A stretch of DNA of 64,000 bases. It comes from an uncultured Acidobacteriota bacterium (GTDB taxonomy: Bacteria; Actinomycetota; Acidimicrobiia; Spongiisociales; ZC4RG35). Positions 8,687 through 61,650 of this stretch are shown in pieces. Numbering within the stretch: the stretch's first letter is position 1; the number at the start of each line of letters is the position of its first letter. The stretch covers positions 148,805 through 212,804 of the forward strand of contig CAVZVJ010000004.1 of the NCBI GenBank assembly GCA_963778755.1, in the 5' to 3' direction. Under the pieces are notes generated by a model. It was not told where the DNA came from. It saw only the letters and a list, made by a program, of their open reading frames with translations, and searched no databases. The position numbers were made by a program, and so were the translations under genes.

Positions 8687-9949
8687 ATGTCTGTTGAGTT
8701 CGATGGAGGAGAGCTCGTGGCGAGACCGCTGACACCCGATCGGTTCGGTGACATCGAGTCGGTGTTCGGGGAGAAAGGCATCGCCCGGCGTTGCTTCTGC
8801 ATGCATTGGCGTCGCCCCGACGGTGGGTATCAGGACCGTCGCCCGACCAAGGATCGGTTCGCCGACCGAGTCAGTGAGGGGAGGCCACCAGGGCTGATCG
8901 GATACCTGGATGAGGTGCCGGTGGGGTGGGTTCAGATCGGCCCCCGCGATGAGTTCCCGACCCTCCGCCGCTCCCGCATCCTGAAACCTGTCGACGACGC
9001 CGAGACCTGGTCGGTCAATTGTTTCGTCACCCGGGTTGGTTACCGGCGCCGGGGGATCGCGTCGGCCCTGTTGGTAGCGGCCAAGGCCTTTGCCAGGGAC
9101 GAGGGCGCCAACTTGATCGAGGGCTATCCGGTCGATGGAGAGCGAGCATCGGTGGTCGACTACTTCACGGGGACTTTCGGGATGTTCCAGGAGGAAGGCT
9201 TTGTCGAGATCCTGCGCCGGGACCCGACAAGACCGATCGTTCGAATTGGGTTGTCCCCCCTCCCTGAGGGGGATCGCCGGAGCTTTAGCGCCGGCGATGG
9301 GGGGTGTCCAGTGTCAACCCCCCTCGACGCGCTCCCTGCGGTCGCTGGCGTCGGTCCCCCCGCTCCGCAGGGGACAACAGATGTTGCGGCCGGAGGGCCG
9401 CTACATCTCGAAGCCGGCTACCGACTCCAATGCCGAGCCGCTCTCTCCCCGGCGCCTCGCCAGCGATCGGAACAAGAGCCCGGCTGCCGCCACGGCCGCC
9501 ATAGTGATCACCATGAGAACTGTCGCCAGGGCGTTGAGCGACGGTGGTGGGGCCAGCCGGGCTCCCGAATAGAGCTTGACCGGGATGGTCACCGAATCGG
9601 CTCCTCCAACCAGGAATTGGCTGATCACGAAGTCGTCGATCGAGATCGCGAAGACAATCGCGAAGCTGGCCAACAGGGCCGGGGCAAGGAGGGGCAACAG
9701 GACGCGTCGCATCGCCTGGAACTGGGAGGCACCGAGGTCCATAGCGGCCTCCTCGTAGTCCCTGCCAATGGCAAACAGCCTCCCTCGCACGATGATCACC
9801 ACAAAGGAGATCGAAAACGTGACATGGCCCAGAAACTGGGCCCAAGTCCCGAACGGCACGAAGTCGTAGACCTTGTCGAAAACGAGGAACAAAGCCACGC
9901 CCATCACGATCTCCGGTGTGACCAGTGGGATCAGCATCAGGAGATTTGA
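8687..9949 (+). CDS. GNAT N-acetyltransferase; core ends near 9250, ORF then reads through a repeat and antisense into the permease
   Basis: CFCMHWR, WSVNCFVTRVGYRRRGIASALL, IEGYPVD. Confidence 0.75.
   Translation: MSVEFDGGELVARPLTPDRFGDIESVFGEKGIARRCFCMHWRRPDGGYQDRRPTKDRFADRVSEGRPPGLIGYLDEVPVGWVQIGPRDEFPTLRRSRILKPVDDAETWSVNCFVTRVGYRRRGIASALLVAAKAFARDEGANLIEGYPVDGERASVVDYFTGTFGMFQEEGFVEILRRDPTRPIVRIGLSPLPEGDRRSFSAGDGGCPVSTPLDALPAVAGVGPPAPQGTTDVAAGGPLHLEAGYRLQCRAALSPAPRQRSEQEPGCRHGRHSDHHENCRQGVERRWWGQPGSRIELDRDGHRIGSSNQELADHEVVDRDREDNREAGQQGRGKEGQQDASHRLELGGTEVHSGLLVVPANGKQPPSHDDHHKGDRKRDMAQKLGPSPERHEVVDLVENEEQSHAHHDLRCDQWDQHQEI
9250..9378. repeat. Multi-hairpin REPIN-like element, copy A (full)
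   Basis: Terminal IR GTTGTCCCC/GGGGACAAC; internal hairpins ATCGCCGG..CCGGCGAT and CGACGC..GCGTCG; same architecture as the copies at 47358 and 55696. Confidence 0.8.
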
Positions 9950-37359: not shown

Positions 37360-37416
37360 CCCCCCTCGCCCGACCCGGAGGGTCGGGCGGTCCCCCCGCT
37401 TTCGCAGGGGGACAAC
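37360..37416. repeat. REPIN-like element copy B (single unit, right half)
   Basis: CCCCCCTCGCCCGACCC-GGA-GGGTCGGGCGGTCCCCCCGCTTTCGCAGGGGGACAAC, nearly identical to the right half of copy E. Confidence 0.85.
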
Positions 37417-46063: not shown

Positions 46064-47348
46064 ATGGGAAAGCACGCCGAGCTCTACGAGAGACACCAAA
46101 AGGTTCTGCCCGGTTGGGCGCCCCTCTATTACCAGCAGCCGATCTCGATCGTCGATGGTGACGGGCGGCATGTCAGTCGACGCCGAGGGCAACCGATACC
46201 TCGACTTTTTTGGAGGGATCCTGGTCACCATGACGGGATACCGGGTCCCGGAAGTGATCGAGGCCATCAAACGCCAGGCCGATCGGATGCTGCACACTTC
46301 GACCCTTTACCTGATCGAATCCCAGATAGAGCTTGCCGAAAAGGTCGCCGAGCTTTCGGGGATCCCCGACGCAAAGGTCTTCTTCACCAACTCCGGCACC
46401 GAGGCCAACGATGCGGCCCTCATGCTGGCGACCACTTACCGCAAGTCCAACCAGGTGTTGGCGATCCGAGGCAGCTACCACGGGAAGTCGCACTCGACTA
46501 TTGCCATCACAGGGCTGAAGGCGTGGTCGGGGACCAGTTTCTCCCCGTTCCAGGTGACCTATGTGCACGGTGGCTACAAGCTGCGCAGCCCATTCGGGCA
46601 CCTCTCCGACGCCGACTTCATCGCTGCTTGCGTCGCCGATCTCGAGGATCTGCTCCGGGTGGCCAGCGCCGGCGAGCCTGCGGCGATGATCGCCGAGCCG
46701 ATTCAGGGTGTCGGCGGCTTTGTAACCCCTCCCGACGGGTTCTTTGGGGCCATGAAAGAAGTGCTCGACGCCCATGGAATCCTGTTCATCTCCGACGAGG
46801 TACAGACGGGTTGGGGACGGACAGGCGAGCATTTCTGGGGCTATCAGGCGCACGGGATCACTCCGGATCTACTCACCTTCGCCAAGGGACTGGGCAATGG
46901 ACTGAGCATCGGCGGCGTGGTGGCGCCGGCCGAGATCATGGAGGCCTATCCGGCGCTTGGGATCTCGACGTTCGGAGGGAACCCTTTGGCGACGGCAGGC
47001 GCTCTCGCCAACCTGGAAGTCCTTCTCGGCCAGGACATGCAGACCAACGCTCTGAAAGTGGGGAATCGGCTGATGCAGAACCTGATCCCACTCTCCGAGG
47101 AGTTGGAGGTGATCGGTGAGGTCAGGGGCAAGGGTCTCATGATCGGGCTCGAGCTGGTGGGACCCAATGGGGAGCCGGCGCCGGAGAAGGCGGCGGCCGC
47201 CCTCGAGGCGGCCCGCGAGGAGGGCCTGCTCATCGGTAAGGGCGGGCTTTATGGGAACTCGTTGCGAATCGCCCCTGCCCTTTCACTGACTGAGGAAGAG
47301 GCGGACGAGGGGTTTGAGCGTCTGGAAAGGGCCCTGAGACGGATCTAG
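46064..47348 (+). CDS. Class III aminotransferase (AGXT2/beta-alanine type); frameshift near 46175
   Basis: YYQQPISIV then YLDFFGG, NSGTEAND, DEVQTGWGRTG, TFAKGLGNG. Confidence 0.88.
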
Positions 47349-47357
47349 CCGTCCCAG

Positions 47358-47500
47358 GTTGTCCCCCCTTTCAAGGGGGGACCGGCGCAGCCACTGGCTG
47401 CGCCGATGGGGGGTTTGATGGTTGTCAGGTGCTGCGGGTTAGCCCCCCTCGCCCAACCCCTTGGGGGTCGGGCGGTCCCTCCGCTCCGCAGGGGGACAAC
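47358..47500. repeat. REPIN-like element copy C (full), overlapping the DUF559 3' end
   Basis: GTTGTCCCCCCTTTCAAGGGGGGACCGGCGCAGCCACTGGCTGCGCCGATGGGGGG...CCCCCCTCGCCC..GGGCGGTCCCTCCGCTCCGCAGGGGGACAAC. Confidence 0.88.
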
Positions 47501-47829
47501 GCGTCCGCAGACAGTCGGCTATCACGGCGAGGACCCCTTCCAGGTTCTCGACAACATCCCATGCCCAGACCCGGAGAACCACCCACCCTCGTGACTTCAT
47601 GTAACGGTCGCGATCCGTGTGAGCGCGAGTTCCGGTGTTGAGATCCGTCGACCTCAACTACGACCCTGTGACTCGGGGCGAAGTCTGCGATGTATGGACC
47701 GATGGGTTGTTGTCTTCGGAATCTGACTCCGAGCCGGTTGTGGCGCAGGTGGCTCCAAACCAGACGCTCGGCGTCGCTCATCGACTGACGATTGACCCTC
47801 GCGTATCGAACCAGCCTGCGGTCTCTCAC
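47439..47829 (-). CDS. DUF559 (Vsr-like) endonuclease; frameshift near 47625
   Basis: SDAERLVWSHLR..GVRFRRQQPIGPYIADF..VVVEVDGSQH, then DRDRYMKSRGWVVLRVW..V..NLEGVLAVI; stop lies inside repeat C. Confidence 0.85.
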
Positions 47830-47967
47830 ACGGGGACTGTGGCTCGGGCGGTGGTGGAGGCAATGGGGGTGTTCCCCCAGGGGGTGATCCCCCTGCAACT
47901 CCTACCCGGATCACAGCACCATTGGGGGCATGAGCAAACAACCACGAATCGCGAAGCGCGGTGTGTC

Positions 47968-48180
47968 ATGAACCTCGCAGTCGGCATTCCCTGTCCTGGA
48001 TGTGGTCACGACGTGGCGAACCTTCTCGAGTTCGTCAAGGACGACTCCCAGGTCCTGGTTGCCCATCGTCTTCAGTGTGTGCGGTGTGAGACCGTCTACT
48101 TGGAGGCGAGGGAGCCGGCCGATTATGAGGAAGACTTTCGTTTGGAGTTGGTCCTCGACGAGGCCATCACGCGGAGCTAG
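47968..48180 (+). CDS. Small zinc-ribbon protein (70 aa)
   Basis: CPGC...CVRC pairs and an acidic tail. Confidence 0.6.
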   Translation: MNLAVGIPCPGCGHDVANLLEFVKDDSQVLVAHRLQCVRCETVYLEAREPADYEEDFRLELVLDEAITRS

Positions 48181-48185
48181 CCGGA

Positions 48186-48221
48186 GACCGACGCAGCCAC
48201 TGGCTGCGTCGATGCGGGGTT
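48186..48221. repeat. REPIN-like element fragment D
   Basis: GACCGACGCAGCCACTGGCTGCGTCGATGCGGGGTT; hairpin identical to copy E. Confidence 0.8.
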
Positions 48222-48225
48222 GGCC

Positions 48226-49176
48226 CTAGAGCAGCGCCTGCAAGTCGATGTCGCAGCTGGGGTGACGCAGCTTGGCCAGGCCCCTCGCCTCGATCTGACG
48301 GACCCGCTCCCGCGTGGAGTTGATGACCTTGCCCACATCCGAGAGCGTCCACGGCTCGTCACCGTCCAGACCGAAACGGAGCCAGAGCACCTGCTGCTCT
48401 TCGAGATCAAGGATCTGCAACGCTTTGATCAGCCGCTCCCGTCGCCACGCCGAAGCCGCGCGGTCCTCGGGGTTGGCCGCACCGGTGTCCTCGACAAAAT
48501 CCTGAAGCGAGGCGTCTCCGTCCTCGCCGACCGGACGGTCCAACGAAACCGTCTCCGCAGGTGCCTCCAGCGCCGCCAGCACTCGCTCGGTGTCCAGACC
48601 GGACGCCTCCGAAATCTCCTCGAGGGTGGGGGCTCGGTGGTATTTGTCGTGCAGGCTCTGCTTGGTGTCCTGGACAGTTCGCACCACGTCGACCATGTGA
48701 ACCGGGAGTCGGATCGTCCGCCCGTTGTTGCCGAGCCCGCGGGTGATCGCTTGTCGGATCCACCAGGTGGCGTAGGTGGAGAACTTGAATCCCTTGCGCC
48801 AGTCGAACTTTTCCACAGCTCGGATCAGCCCCAGGTTGCCCTCCTGGATCAGGTCGAGGAGATCGAGGCCTCGGCCCGTGTAACGCTTGGCGATCGAGAT
48901 GACCAACCGCAAATTGGAGCGGATGAAGGTCATCTTTGCCTCTTCGCCCTCGGCGATGAGACGCATCAGTTGCGGGCGTTCCGCAGCCTGGAAATCTCCC
49001 GTTTCGAGCAGGGATTTTGCCTTCTTGCCCCGCTCCATCGAACGGGCCAGATGGACCTCGTCCTCAGCCGTCAGGAGGAGGTGGGCAGATACTTCATCCA
49101 GATATAGGCCAACGGTGTCACCGGGGCCTGAGCCCCGCTCCGGTCTCGCATCACTGGCCCTGATGGGCTTCCCCAA
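48226..49176 (-). CDS. RNA polymerase sigma-70 factor, group 2 (SigB/HrdD-like)
   Basis: NLRLVISIAKRY, DLIQEGNLGLIRAVEKFD, FSTYATWWIRQAITR, TRERVRQIE; no long region 1.1. Confidence 0.92.
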   Translation of the reverse strand: MGKPIRASDARPERGSGPGDTVGLYLDEVSAHLLLTAEDEVHLARSMERGKKAKSLLETGDFQAAERPQLMRLIAEGEEAKMTFIRSNLRLVISIAKRYTGRGLDLLDLIQEGNLGLIRAVEKFDWRKGFKFSTYATWWIRQAITRGLGNNGRTIRLPVHMVDVVRTVQDTKQSLHDKYHRAPTLEEISEASGLDTERVLAALEAPAETVSLDRPVGEDGDASLQDFVEDTGAANPEDRAASAWRRERLIKALQILDLEEQQVLWLRFGLDGDEPWTLSDVGKVINSTRERVRQIEARGLAKLRHPSCDIDLQALL

Positions 49177-55695: not shown

Positions 55696-55815
55696 GTTGT
55701 CCCCCCTTTTAAGGGGGGACCGACGCAGCCACTGGCTGCGTCGACGGGGGGTTTGACTTGTCCCCCCTCGCCCGACCTGCGGTCGGGCGGTCCCCCCGCT
55801 TCGCAGGGGGACAAC
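55696..55815. repeat. REPIN-like element copy E (full)
   Basis: GTTGTCCCCCCTTTTAAGGGGGGACCGACGCAGCCACTGGCTGCGTCGACGGGGGG..CCCCCCTCGCCCGACCTGCGGTCGGGCGGTCCCCCCGCTTCGCAGGGGGACAAC between convergent fumC and sufU. Confidence 0.9.
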
Positions 55816-58790: not shown

Positions 58791-59707
58791 CAGCTGACAG
58801 ACCAGATCGACAGTTTCCGCCAACCCGTCGAAGTCGGCCAGATCGAGCCATTGCAAGTAGATGCGCTCGACACCTGCAGCCTCGAGGGCAGCCACTTTCT
58901 CCGCCGCCTGATCGGGAACGCCGAATATCACTCCCGAGCTGTCCCACTCCTCCTCCAACTCGGCCGGCGTGCTCCCGCCGCCGAACCGCTCGGCGAAGGC
59001 GCTCGAGCCGTCGTCGATACTCGGCCTCGGTGGGTCCCGACGATCGCGGGGCCCATCACCGTCGCCTCGACGTGGCGATCAGCGGCGGCCTCCCTCATGA
59101 CTTCGATCTTGGCTCGGGACTCCTCAGGTGAACAGATGAAGAAGTTGTATTCGTCGGCCCGGGAGCCGGCGAGACGAGGCGTCCGGTTCTTACCGTCTCC
59201 GCCGATCACGAGTCGGATGCCGACCGGCTTCGGCTTCACCTCGGCGTCGAGTCGGTAGTACTGACCTTCGAAAACTGCCCGGCCGGGCCCGAACGCTGCC
59301 AACAGGTAGTCGAGAGCCTCTTCGAATCGAGCCCAGCGCTCTGCGGAGCCGGGAAACGGCAGCCCAAGGGACTCATGCTCGAATTCCATCCAGCCGGTGC
59401 CGACACCGAGGTCGAATCGCCCTCCTGACATCTGATCGACAGTGGCTGCGTTCTTGGCGATGACCGCCGGGTGGCGAAAGGTGATCGGTGTCACCAAGAC
59501 ACAGAGGCGAATCGTCGAGGTCTCCCGGGCGAGCCCGGCCAGGGTGGCGAAGGCGTCGGTGGCGTCCGGGGTCGGTTCTCGTCTCGACAGGTAGTGGTCG
59601 CAGCGGGCAAATGACACCAGGCCTTTGGACTCGGCGAGTCGTGCCGCGGCCAGCATCTGCTCGTAGGTCCCACCGAGGTGGGGCTCGGTCATGATCGAAT
59701 ACTTCAC
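58790..59707 (-). CDS. LLM-class flavin (F420)-dependent oxidoreductase; frameshifted
   Basis: RCDHY, LVTPITFRHP, DQMSGGRFDLGVGTGW; C-terminus AGVERIYLQWLD in a second frame. Confidence 0.8.
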
Positions 59708-60735: not shown

Positions 60736-61650
60736 TCAGCTTTGGTACGCGTCGAACACGGTGTCGAGAACATCGAGGTCAGGCATGAAGATCTGCATGT
60801 AAAACCGTTGGCAGCCCGCCTCGCCGAGAGCGGCCAGCATCTCGGCCGGTTTGGAGCCTGACCCGTGCGGATACCCCCGTTCGCTGTAAACGGTCTCGAT
60901 CCGCTCAGGGGTGGACTTGGTCTTTGCGGCCTGCTTTTCGAGGAGGCGGCGGTAGTCACTTTCGGTGCGCGCCGCCACCGCCGGCCCGGCCATGGACAGG
61001 AAGATCGAGCCCGGGTCACGGTCGGCGTCGATTGCAGCGGCGTGGGCCGTGGCCGCCCGCTGCGCGTACTCGTCGGGATGGCAGGCGTAGATGTTGAACT
61101 CGTCCGCGTAGAGACCGGCAAGCCGTGGCGTCTTCTTCTGCCCACCTCCTCCCACCAGCAACCTGACGTTGGTGTGGTGAGGGTGCGGGTCAAACTCGGC
61201 CAACTGGTAGTGAAACCCCTTGAAGGACCTGGCTTCAGGCGTGAGTGCTGCCCGCAGATAGGCGAGACACTCCTCGAGCATCTCGTAACGGACCTTTCGC
61301 TCCGGGTAGTCGATCCCATACAGCTCGAATTCCTCATTGAGCCAGCCCACGCCGACTCCCATGGTGAATCGGCCACCTGAGATCTCGTCGAGGGTGACCG
61401 CCATCTTGTAGAGCACGGCTGGGTGGCGAAACGTGACGGGGGACAACAGCGAAACCAGCTGCAGGCTCGTTGTCTCCCTGGCGAGAGCGGCGAGATGGAC
61501 GAGGTGGTCGTAGGCAGGATGGTTGGGGTCGTCACCTCGCTCTAGGTAGTGGTCAGGGAGGGCGATCGCCGCCAGTCCACGCTCTTCCGCCCATCGGGCC
61601 GTGGCCAGGATCAGGTCCCAGGACCCTCGATTCTGTATGGCGAATTCCAT
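60736..61650 (-). CDS. LLM-class flavin (F420)-dependent oxidoreductase
   Basis: LPDHY, SPVTFRHP, SGGRFTMGVGVGW, ADEFNIY. Confidence 0.88.
   Translation of the reverse strand: MEFAIQNRGSWDLILATARWAEERGLAAIALPDHYLERGDDPNHPAYDHLVHLAALARETTSLQLVSLLSPVTFRHPAVLYKMAVTLDEISGGRFTMGVGVGWLNEEFELYGIDYPERKVRYEMLEECLAYLRAALTPEARSFKGFHYQLAEFDPHPHHTNVRLLVGGGGQKKTPRLAGLYADEFNIYACHPDEYAQRAATAHAAAIDADRDPGSIFLSMAGPAVAARTESDYRRLLEKQAAKTKSTPERIETVYSERGYPHGSGSKPAEMLAALGEAGCQRFYMQIFMPDLDVLDTVFDAYQS

What the first reader, a model, noticed from the sequence alone, without database searches (positions are those of the whole stretch)
47358..48221. DUF559 (Vsr-like) endonuclease fused to a dispersed structured repeat: candidate non-RAYT REPIN-like mobile system
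Seen: a stand-alone DUF559 gene of about 130 aa (47829->47439) runs into, and stops inside, a full copy of a 120-145 bp multi-hairpin repeat; its C-terminal RCPPAERRDRPTPKGLGEGG* is repeat-encoded. A repeat fragment lies about 360 bp beyond its start (48186). The same repeat occurs without the gene at 9250, 37360 and 55696. Known: REPINs are inverted REP pairs dispersed by an adjacent HUH-family RAYT; alphaproteobacterial RIME/CIR repeats have a similar C-run/G-run double-hairpin design; DUF559 is a Vsr-like nuclease fold with no established function. Inference: gene plus repeat is the autonomous locus and the lone repeats are non-autonomous copies spread by a nicking nuclease. I know of no characterised system of this type, but could not search the literature.
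Basis: partly seen in the sequence, partly recalled or inferred. Interest (0 to 1): 0.9.

Follow-up and report, generated by a model that had tools for sequence, protein, structure and literature searches.

The report
Small nuclease gene bracketed by repeats
A broken copy of a small Vsr-like (DUF559) nuclease gene lies inside a family of short G/C-run hairpin repeats, and in many other bacteria such genes are likewise bracketed by this kind of repeat, which points to a gene-plus-repeat system that I could not find described.

Summary
A DUF559 gene (47829->47439, minus strand) is broken by a 2-nt deletion and reads into a repeat. That repeat is a pair of ~55-nt units: C-run, loop, G-run, variable GC hairpin, G-run. 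The MAG holds about 58 such units. They are restricted to one Acidimicrobiia genus, favour gene 3' ends, and come and go at orthologous sites. No RAYT was found in 14 genus genomes.

The adjacency in the window is one ancestral event at a syntenic locus. However, a second DUF559 paralogue at another locus is bracketed by a second, sister repeat family, and a third copy elsewhere abuts that family too.

Across 77 DUF559 loci from many phyla, 47 carry a repeat shared between their two flanks (36 inverted). None of 102 small control ORFs do. Most arms have the BoxC/PIT/"TM_ECO" triplex-motif design. That is an orphan E. coli repeat whose describers found no mobility gene. E. coli ycjD (DUF559) itself abuts BoxC.

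Cleavage and mobilisation are untested. Repeat-rich genomes without DUF559 exist, such as E. coli Sakai. Eight library searches found no prior description.

The parts
47439..47829 (-). DUF559 (Vsr-like PD-(D/E)XK) gene, type A. Pseudogene: 2-nt deletion near 47621/47622. Its 3' end is encoded by the repeat unit.
   Evidence: Pfam hits on both frames. Alignment to intact orthologues in G006 and G007. The profile of A/B/C proteins matches PDB 3hrl at E 2e-29.
47359..47412 (+). Family-1 repeat unit, T2 type (T-rich first loop). It starts 11 nt after the aminotransferase stop.
   Evidence: nhmmer E 1.2e-10; covariance model hit.
47443..47499 (-). Family-1 repeat unit, T1 type. It holds the last ~20 codons and the stop of the DUF559 frame.
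48186..48221 (+). Remnant of a T2 unit (second hairpin plus G-run), just before the sigma-factor stop. G001 and G007 have a whole unit here.
   Evidence: weak nhmmer hit at L006 2079-2113
47968..48180 (+). Small CxxC...CxxC ORF (70 aa) between the DUF559 gene and the unit remnant. It is a neighbour, not part of the repeat system.
   Evidence: Same ORF at the same locus in G001, G009 and G010; no Pfam hit for the longer ORF 47635..48180.
9251..9377 (.). Gene-less tail-to-tail pair of family-1 units: 9251-9303 (+, T2-like) and 9318-9377 (-, T3).
37360..37415 (-). Single family-1 unit (T1), 8 nt after a gene's stop.
55697..55814 (.). Gene-less tail-to-tail pair between convergent genes: 55697-55750 (+, T2) and 55762-55814 (-, T1). 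The orthologous site is empty or differently filled in other genus members.

Best explanation
The window holds a decayed member of a gene-plus-repeat pairing. A small stand-alone DUF559 nuclease (Vsr-like PD-(D/E)XK fold) is tied to a family of ~55-nt structured repeats with the order C-run, loop, G-run, GC hairpin, G-run. This is the BoxC/PIT triplex-motif design, here with a hairpin in the second loop.

I propose that the nuclease recognises the folded or mismatched form of its own repeat family and nicks it. Host repair or recombination then copies, moves or deletes repeats. The gene would sit between two inverted repeats much as a RAYT sits between REPs.

In this MAG the type-A gene is dead (frameshift), so the ~58 family-1 units would now be orphans that persist at gene 3' ends.

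Shown: the anatomy, the census, the genus restriction, presence/absence at orthologous sites, and the cross-phylum bracket. Inferred: recognition, nicking, and any role in spread.
For: (1) Within the genus, small DUF559 genes occur at three places, each abutting repeats at the 3' end. Type A (aminotransferase|sigma locus) goes with family 1. Type B (after a pafA/dop-like gene) has family-2 pairs on both sides in G001, G005 and G007. Type C (G003, elsewhere) has a family-2 pair at its 3' end. Overall 8 of 9 small-gene loci have units within 1.5 kb, against 0 of 19 large-ORF DUF559-domain loci.

(2) Baseline in G000: 51 of 1620 crude genes have a unit within 60 nt of the 3' end, 20 of 1620 at the 5' end, and 0 of 1620 at both.

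(3) Locus B shows graded states: empty in 5 genomes, one pair without a gene in G003 and G004, pair-gene-pair in 3, and a broken gene in G010.

(4) In 77 of 80 evaluable DUF559 loci from many phyla, 47 carry a flank-to-flank repeat of at least 40 bits (36 inverted, 11 direct). None of 102 small control ORFs in the same loci do. With ORF-bounded flanks the figures are 28 of 71 against 3 of 284, Fisher p = 5e-19.

(5) 35 of 47 arms have the C-run/loop/G-run plus G-rich-run design, against 4 of 633 random segments.

(6) I chose ten genomes because their DUF559 locus showed flank repeats. In those, further gene-less copies of the same motif number from 0 to about 23, and reversed-pattern controls give 0. 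No other (+)...(-) pair spaced 300-600 nt appears in the listings.

(7) E. coli K-12 has 21 motifs and one DUF559 gene, ycjD. Its annotated end reads into a motif-like hairpin and a canonical BoxC lies about 165 nt beyond it. CFT073 and UTI89 have 2 motifs each and no DUF559.

(8) No RAYT (PF01797) was found in 0 of 14 genus genomes.

(9) A classical Vsr role is poorly supported. A C5-methyltransferase (PF00145) was found in 1 of 14 genus genomes, and in none of the 80 loci.

(10) The repeats turn over. The orthologous site of the 55697 pair is empty in three genomes and holds family 1, family 2 or other repeats in others.
Against: No cleavage, binding or transposition has been observed, and no target-site duplication or sharp element ends were found.

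The window's adjacency is a single ancestral event, since the loci in G000, G006, G007, G008 and G005 are orthologous.

Repeat numbers do not track an intact gene. G000 has the most family-1 units (58) with a broken gene. No small DUF559 was found in G011 (31 family 1 / 23 family 2), G009 (13/13), G012 (9/25) or G004 (2/58). G008 (30/30) has only a fragment, and G010 (18/64) only a broken type B. G007 has an intact type B but only 15 family-2 units. E. coli Sakai has 16 motifs and no DUF559.

30 of 77 wide loci show no flank repeat of 40 bits or more.

Geometry is not uniform. In type A the unit heads face the gene. In type B and the proteobacterial loci the tails face it.

A ~110-125-aa nuclease has no strand-transfer domain. 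Holder et al. saw no stable triplex in vivo, and earlier work found no promoter or terminator activity (passages).

Technical limits: these are MAGs (G000 is 58% complete), related genomes are not independent, control genes are crude ORF calls, and covariance-model counts score only 150 candidates per genome.
Confidence: 0.5

Rival explanations
1. The gene is the mobile part. On this view DUF559 is a free-standing homing-type nuclease gene. It cuts within or between pre-existing inverted repeat pairs and is copied into them by break repair. The repeats are landing pads spread by some other means.
For: The gene sits in the spacer of a repeat pair in most bracketed loci. The Vsr fold includes a proven homing endonuclease, I-Bth0305I (abstract and passages of PMC3239194). 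Locus B shows a pair without a gene next to pair-gene-pair states. In E. coli, ycjD is found where the eef operon is absent (passages of PMC12817139). One genome (G042) holds 9 DUF559 matches.
Against: The gene is usually single-copy while gene-less pairs are many: K-12 has 1 gene to 21 motifs, G044 1 to 23, G043 1 to 11. It leaves unexplained what spreads near-identical motifs across alpha-, beta-, gamma- and deltaproteobacteria. These ~110-125-aa proteins lack the extra DNA-binding domain of I-Bth0305I.
Confidence: 0.2
2. There is no functional link. On this view the repeats are REP-like, terminator-like elements that pile up in permissive spacers between convergent genes. DUF559 is an ordinary Vsr-type repair gene or decaying accessory gene that happens to lie in such spacers.
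For: Units favour gene ends: 17 convergent, 9 tandem and 3 divergent spacers, against a background of 331, 949 and 329. The same spacer is colonised by several unrelated repeat families in different species. The unrelated Zn-ribbon ORF also sits next to a unit. The gene decays repeatedly, in G000, G008, G005 and G010. Caulobacter VsrA, a DUF559 protein, is functionally linked to a C5-methyltransferase (passages of PMC12907096).
Against: 47 of 77 loci against 0 of 102 controls across phyla. 0 of 1620 genes in G000 are flanked on both sides. There is paralogue-to-family specificity. A C5-methyltransferase is present in only 1 of 14 genus genomes and in none of the 80 loci.
Confidence: 0.12
3. 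DUF559 is a host caretaker. On this view it is a structure-specific nuclease that removes or resolves hairpin or triplex structures formed by these repeats at stalled forks. It is kept next to a repeat pair for regulation, and it does not spread the repeats.
For: TM/BoxC loci are more rearranged than control sites, and PIT elements block polymerase in vitro (abstract and passages of PMC4666352). Caulobacter vsrA is induced by DNA damage. Genomes with almost no motifs also lack the gene (CFT073, UTI89).
Against: Repeat-rich genomes do without the gene (Sakai, and several genus members). A caretaker need not be bracketed by its substrate in unrelated phyla.
Confidence: 0.1

Closest known systems
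REPIN / RAYT (REPtron)
   Same: A usually single-copy gene is bracketed by inverted copies of a short structured repeat. That repeat is dispersed elsewhere as singles and inverted pairs, is mostly intergenic, and is vertically inherited with lineage-specific families (abstracts).
   Different: The enzyme has a Vsr-like PD-(D/E)XK fold, not a HUH/Y1 transposase fold; PF01797 was found in 0 of 14 genus genomes. There is no GTAG tag. The repeat has three runs (C, G, G), not a simple palindrome. No transposition chemistry is known for such a nuclease.
BoxC / PIT / TM_ECO intrastrand-triplex repeats (Bergler 1992; Hoyne and Maher 2000, 2002; Holder et al. 2015, PMC4666352)
   Same: Same block order: pyrimidine run, loop, purine run, loop, purine run. 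G/C-rich, intergenic, and occurring as singles and inverted pairs that always join two subtypes. In E. coli 5 of 5 pairs are type A plus type B (section 18 of the paper). In G000 12 of 12 inverted pairs are T2 plus T1/T3 (my reading of the listing). The arms bracketing proteobacterial DUF559 genes carry the TM_ECO core itself.
   Different: In the window's families the second loop is a 20-30-nt GC hairpin with compensatory changes, and the run sequences differ. The authors report no linked mobility gene. Their main text has 0 mentions of endonuclease, ycjD or Vsr; their supplements could not be read.
Vsr and Vsr-like DUF559 repair nucleases (E. coli Vsr; Caulobacter VsrA, PMC12907096)
   Same: Same fold family (Pfam DUF559; PDB 3hrl at E 2e-29). 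Several acidic residues and a His are invariant across the six A/B/C proteins (D49, E60, H66 in the numbering).
   Different: A partner C5-methyltransferase was found in only 1 of 14 genus genomes and in none of the 80 loci. The genes are bracketed by repeats.
I-Bth0305I (EDxHD homing endonuclease, PMC3239194)
   Same: A Vsr-fold nuclease used by a selfish element. Free-standing genes of that family exist.
   Different: It has an N-terminal NUMOD/HTH DNA-binding region and lies in a group I intron. The proteins here are a single domain of ~110-125 aa.
CGTC-tagged REPs and MITEs without a dedicated transposase (Di Nocera et al. 2013, PMC3733652)
   Same: Abundant small palindromic repeats whose mobilising enzyme is unknown.
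   Different: No CGTC tag is general in these units. No terminal-inverted-repeat plus target-duplication structure was found.

Membership tests
REPIN/RAYT system | Associated HUH Y1 transposase (RAYT, PF01797) flanked by the repeats | tested here: not met
   PF01797: 0 of 14 genus genomes, 7 of them at least 90% complete; the control rings in 6 of 14 reference genomes.
REPIN/RAYT system | REP unit with a conserved GTAG tetranucleotide next to a palindrome | tested here: not met
   The units begin GGTTGTCCCCC. No GTAG appears in the 32-sequence alignment consensus.
REPIN/RAYT system | Units occur as inverted pairs as well as singles, and the gene is bracketed by inverted units | tested here: met
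   There are 12 inverted pairs in G000. The G007 gene lies between a (-) and a (+) unit. 36 of 47 wide brackets are inverted.
BoxC/PIT/TM_ECO triplex-motif repeats | Three consecutive blocks (pyrimidine run, complementary purine run, second purine run) separated by two short loops | tested here: inconclusive
   The three runs are present and nearly invariant. However, loop 2 is a 20-30-nt hairpin, outside the 1-6-nt loops of the ITxF definition (passage). Triplex formation cannot be tested here.
BoxC/PIT/TM_ECO triplex-motif repeats | Sequence identity to the TM_ECO core | tested here: not met
   The window's units carry different runs. The core is found in the arms of proteobacterial DUF559 loci.
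DUF559 / Vsr-like PD-(D/E)XK nucleases | Match to PF04480 above the curated cut-off, over the whole domain | tested here: met
   In the window the match is split over two frames: 66.8 and 20.9 bits against a cut-off of 20.6. Intact orthologues score 113 and 110 bits.
DUF559 / Vsr-like PD-(D/E)XK nucleases | Intact reading frame with conserved acidic and His residues | tested here: not met
   The window gene has a 2-nt deletion. The residues are invariant in the six intact A/B/C proteins.
Vsr very-short-patch repair | A cognate C5-cytosine methyltransferase in the genome or next to the gene | tested here: not met
   PF00145 was found in 1 of 14 genus genomes (G005 only). There was no tblastn hit in the 80 loci (576 kb) using one methyltransferase query, so sensitivity is limited.
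MITE | Terminal inverted repeats, target-site duplication, and a matching autonomous IS | tested here: inconclusive
   Pairs have inverted ends, but no duplication is visible in the flanks. I made no systematic search for an IS with matching ends.

The most novel reading that the evidence does not exclude
BoxC/PIT-type triplex-motif repeats have been orphan elements in E. coli for about thirty years. Together with their relatives, including this Acidimicrobiia double-hairpin variant, they may be the non-autonomous partners of YcjD/DUF559-family nucleases. That would be a second, HUH-independent class of REPIN-like intragenomic replicators.

Pairs always join two subtypes, so a snap-back or cruciform of a pair would carry mismatches. 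In E. coli the TTA loop opposite CCG would give T:G and A:C mispairs. A Vsr-fold mismatch nickase could read these as its cue.
Probability: 0.35. Interest if true: 0.95.

Novelty: new variant of a known kind. Interest (0 to 1): 0.85.

Why it matters
Two long-standing orphans would explain each other. DUF559 is a very common nuclease family with almost no assigned biology. BoxC/PIT/TM repeats are reported in more than 260 genomes and linked to genome instability, with no known origin or mobiliser.

The link is directly testable in E. coli K-12 using ycjD and its 21 BoxC copies. If it holds, the RAYT-REPIN concept of vertically inherited gene-repeat partnerships would extend to a second enzyme fold. 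It would also give a candidate structure- or mismatch-specific nickase.

For this window alone the yield is smaller: a dead gene and its probably orphaned repeats.

Tried and rejected
Rfam: no family matches anywhere in the window at gathering score.

RAYT as mobiliser: none found.

Recurrent association at the window's locus: rejected, because the loci are orthologous.

My own first reading was that the G007 gene stops outside the repeat (note). It was wrong and I corrected it.

Target-site duplications: none seen in the 8-nt flanks of 54 units or at filled and empty sites.

E. coli-wide copy number by megablast: ycjD plus BoxC is at least 80% covered in 3377 of 5426 genomes. Megablast sees only 1-7 places per genome, against 21 by pattern in K-12, so copy number versus ycjD status could not be measured. 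This is inconclusive.

Covariance-model counts score only 150 candidates per genome and are lower bounds.

The C5-methyltransferase search of the 80 loci used a single protein query.

Not done: co-phylogeny of DUF559 clades with arm sequence; structure prediction; reads and RNA evidence; a search for an IS with matching ends.

Literature. Of my eight searches, these bore on a possible description of DUF559 or Vsr bracketed by repeats, and found none: DUF559+repeat, DUF559 alone (25 papers), Vsr/inverted repeats/mobile, motif words, intrastrand triplex/ycjD/TMECO, and 'very short patch'+'repetitive extragenic' (0 papers). Subscription journals are not covered and supplements were closed. Supplementary Table S2 of Holder et al., which lists the genes flanking each TM_ECO, may name ycjD.

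Claims resting on unpublished genomes. G011: counts of 17 (pattern), 31 and 23 (models), and the 83-nt spacer at locus A. G044 (locus L092): 23 motifs, 1 DUF559, and its bracket.
Full report
WHAT IS IN THE WINDOW

The window is G000:C4:148805-212804, from a 1.80-Mb MAG with 63% G+C and 58% completeness. The nearest named loci, L087 and L088, are titled 'Acidimicrobiia bacterium'.

The region lies between a class-III aminotransferase (46155-47348, +) and a sigma-70 gene (48226-49176, -). A DUF559 gene sits there on the minus strand, split over two frames. Against its intact orthologues it has three changes: a 2-nt deletion near 47621/47622, a 3-nt in-frame deletion, and a 4-nt insertion that removes the stop the orthologues use. 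It is therefore a pseudogene.

Its last ~20 codons are encoded by a repeat unit. The intact genes of G006 and G007 also end inside that unit, at a TGA in a hairpin loop.

THE REPEAT

The '120-145 bp repeat' is a pair of ~55-nt units. Each unit reads GGTTGTCCCCC, loop, GGGGGGAC, a GC hairpin of variable sequence, then GA-GGGGGG.
- 8 of the 16 consensus pairs keep pairing through changes on both sides.
- Three subtypes are visible in the listing: T1 and T3 (first loop TGCGAAGC) and T2 (T-rich loop).
- By my reading of that listing, all 12 inverted pairs in G000 join a T2 unit with a T1 or T3 unit.

Iterated nhmmer finds 54 units in 38 clusters, and a covariance model finds 58. With crude ORF-based genes, 17 clusters lie between convergent genes, 9 between tandem genes and 3 between divergent genes. 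A further 9 fall inside a crude ORF. The background is 331, 949 and 329 spacers. Most units lie within 20 nt of a stop codon. No Rfam family matches.

DISTRIBUTION AND TURNOVER

A strict pattern hits 11 of 13 other genomes of the genus and 0 of 27 genomes of other genera. The reversed control gives 0.

A sister family (family 2) has the same architecture with a TTTCTCCCCCC-type head. G000 has 15 units and G001 has 83.

Model counts for family 1 / family 2 are lower bounds, and G011 is unpublished:

| Genome | Family 1 | Family 2 |
|---|---|---|
| G000 | 58 | 15 |
| G001 | 26 | 83 |
| G002 | 0 | 1 |
| G003 | 8 | 30 |
| G004 | 2 | 58 |
| G005 | 3 | 57 |
| G006 | 41 | 14 |
| G007 | 25 | 15 |
| G008 | 30 | 30 |
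| G009 | 13 | 13 |
| G010 | 18 | 64 |
| G011 | 31 | 23 |
| G012 | 9 | 25 |
| G013 | 3 | 2 |

I followed the orthologous spacer of the window's 55697 pair across the genus:
- nearly empty in G002, G004 and G013;
- a plain hairpin in G003;
- one family-1 unit in G009, and remnants in G001 and G006;
- family 2 in G012 and in a second G010 copy;
- both families in G008;
- unrelated repeats in G007 and G005.

These elements therefore come and go on the time scale of species. No RAYT was found in any of the 14 genomes.

THE DUF559 GENES OF THE GENUS

PF04480 gives 28 places in 12 of 14 genomes. Nineteen are C-terminal domains of large ORFs, and none of these has a unit within 1.5 kb. Of the nine small-gene loci, eight do.

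Type A loci are orthologous. The gene is intact in G006 and G007, frameshifted in G000, a central fragment in G008, and a 27-residue remnant in G005. The same spacer is empty in G003 and G013. The adjacency seen in the window is thus one inherited event.

Type B is 35% identical to type A and lies after a pafA/dop-like gene. It has family-2 pairs on both sides in G001, G005 and G007. It is broken in G010. G003 and G004 have one pair and no gene at that site, and five genomes have neither.

Type C is 60% identical to type B by tblastx and sits elsewhere in G003. It too has a family-2 pair at its 3' end.

In G000 only 51 of 1620 crude genes have a unit within 60 nt of the 3' end, and none has units at both ends.

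BEYOND THE GENUS

A scan of one genome per species with the A/B/C alignment returned 80 loci, mostly Proteobacteria. Dehalococcoidia, Nitrospirota, Planctomycetes, Bacteroidota and others were also represented.

I compared 350 nt upstream with 350 nt downstream of each match.
- 47 of 77 evaluable loci share a repeat of at least 40 bits (36 inverted, 11 direct).
- 0 of 102 small (80-200 aa) control ORFs in the same loci do.
- An earlier version with ORF-bounded flanks gave 28 of 71 against 3 of 284.
- 35 of the 47 arms have the C-run/loop/G-run plus G-rich-run design, against 4 of 633 random segments.
- In 11 of 47 the DUF559 frame stops inside the downstream arm, as it does in the window.

Many arms carry the core GGGAGAGGGTTAGGGTGAGGG.

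I then chose ten genomes because their locus had such arms, so the bracket itself is not new evidence for them. The motif occurs in 2 to 27 copies against 1 to 9 DUF559 matches, and reversed-pattern controls give 0. Gene-less inverted pairs 40-125 nt apart are present. In the listings no other (+)...(-) pair spaced 300-600 nt appears apart from the ones around DUF559. The bracket is seen in 9 of 10 genomes and on one side only in G047. G044 is unpublished.

THE LINK TO A KNOWN ORPHAN REPEAT

That core is the 'TM_ECO' intrastrand-triplex motif of Holder et al. 2015 (PMC4666352; I read the abstract, section 18 and passages). It was formerly called BoxC, first seen in the envM (fabI) paper, and PIT.

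According to that paper:
- there are 23 copies in E. coli MG1655 and the motif occurs in more than 260 genomes;
- it is always intergenic;
- there are five inverted pairs, always type A with type B;
- earlier work found no promoter or terminator activity;

Its main text has no mention of endonuclease, ycjD or Vsr. I could not read its supplements.

In K-12, ycjD (DUF559) lies next to fabI. Its annotated end (...RRSPSP*) reads into a motif-like hairpin. A canonical BoxC lies about 165 nt beyond it, and a 39-nt duplicate of the gene's 3' end lies between them.

Pattern and PF04480 counts in four E. coli genomes:

| Strain | Motifs | DUF559 |
|---|---|---|
| K-12 | 21 | 1 |
| Sakai | 16 | 0 |
| CFT073 | 2 | 0 |
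| UTI89 | 2 | 0 |

A 2026 paper notes that ycjD occupies the site where the eef operon is absent (passages of PMC12817139).

WHAT THE NUCLEASE IS LIKELY NOT DOING

A DUF559 protein of Caulobacter, VsrA, is functionally tied to a solitary C5-methyltransferase (passages of PMC12907096). Here PF00145 is found in 1 of 14 genus genomes. It is absent from G006, G007, G001 and G003, which carry intact genes. No methyltransferase-like hit lies in the 80 loci (one query, so limited sensitivity).

HOW IT MOST LIKELY WORKS

Shown: a specific, phylum-crossing bracket of small DUF559 genes by BoxC-type repeats; paralogue-specific repeat families within one genus; dispersed gene-less copies; turnover at orthologous sites; no RAYT.

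Inferred: the nuclease recognises a folded or mismatched form of its repeat and nicks it, and host repair then copies or deletes repeats.

The constant pairing of two subtypes suggests a concrete cue. A snap-back of such a pair would carry mismatches, which is what Vsr-fold enzymes read. This is a hypothesis only.

The main rival is that the gene homes into repeat pairs, which fits the same anatomy. A caretaker role and plain coincidence are less likely but not excluded.

AGAINST, AND LIMITS
- Nothing enzymatic is shown.
- Repeat-rich genomes without an intact small DUF559 are common in the genus. Sakai is one in E. coli.
- G000 has the most family-1 units with a dead gene.
- 30 of 77 loci lack a clear bracket.
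- Orientation of the units relative to the gene differs between type A and the other loci.
- No element ends or duplications were found.
- MAG incompleteness, relatedness of the genomes, crude control genes and capped model counts weaken the correlations.

NOVELTY

Eight library searches in all, six of them on this question, found no paper linking DUF559 or Vsr-like genes with BoxC/PIT/TM or REP-like repeats. Di Nocera et al. 2013 state that CGTC-type REPs lack a dedicated transposase.

I file this as a REPtron-like arrangement with a different enzyme fold, not as a member of the REPIN/RAYT family. Its defining enzyme and GTAG tag were both tested and not met.

Noticed in passing
window 47968-48180 (+): A 70-aa ORF with two CxxC pairs (Zn-ribbon-like). 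It is conserved at the same aminotransferase|sigma spacer in G001, G009 and G010, where DUF559 is absent. It has no Pfam match.
   Followed up: partly
L007 575-905 (G008 locus A); G007 site: A third, unrelated repeat family built of CCGTAA/CGGAT-type short periods with an inverted partner. It replaces both ends of the DUF559 fragment in G008 and fills the G007 orthologue of the window's 55697 site.
   Followed up: no
E. coli records W01-W04: BoxC/TM_ECO core counts differ tenfold within the species: K-12 has 21, Sakai 16, CFT073 2 and UTI89 2. Only K-12 of these four has a DUF559 gene.
   Followed up: partly
H1 (E. coli strain ETEC6): The annotation under the match lists an IS1 transposase and DUF559 twice. 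This suggests that ycjD is split by an IS1 insertion.
   Followed up: no
G000 listing; window pairs at 9251/9318, 47359/47443 and 55697/55762: All 12 inverted family-1 pairs join a T2-type unit with a T1/T3-type unit. The only same-type neighbours are direct tandems (C10:24840/24915 and C10:122190/122255). This mirrors the type A plus type B rule reported for E. coli.
   Followed up: partly
window 59390-59623 and 61342-61578: Two stretches about 71% alike, 1.95 kb apart in direct orientation (D2 and D13). They are probably tandem paralogous genes.
   Followed up: no
L012 1059-1410 (G010): The type-B DUF559 in G010 is broken, with the N-terminal and C-terminal parts in different frames. This is a second independent decay of a small DUF559 gene in the genus.
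   Followed up: partly
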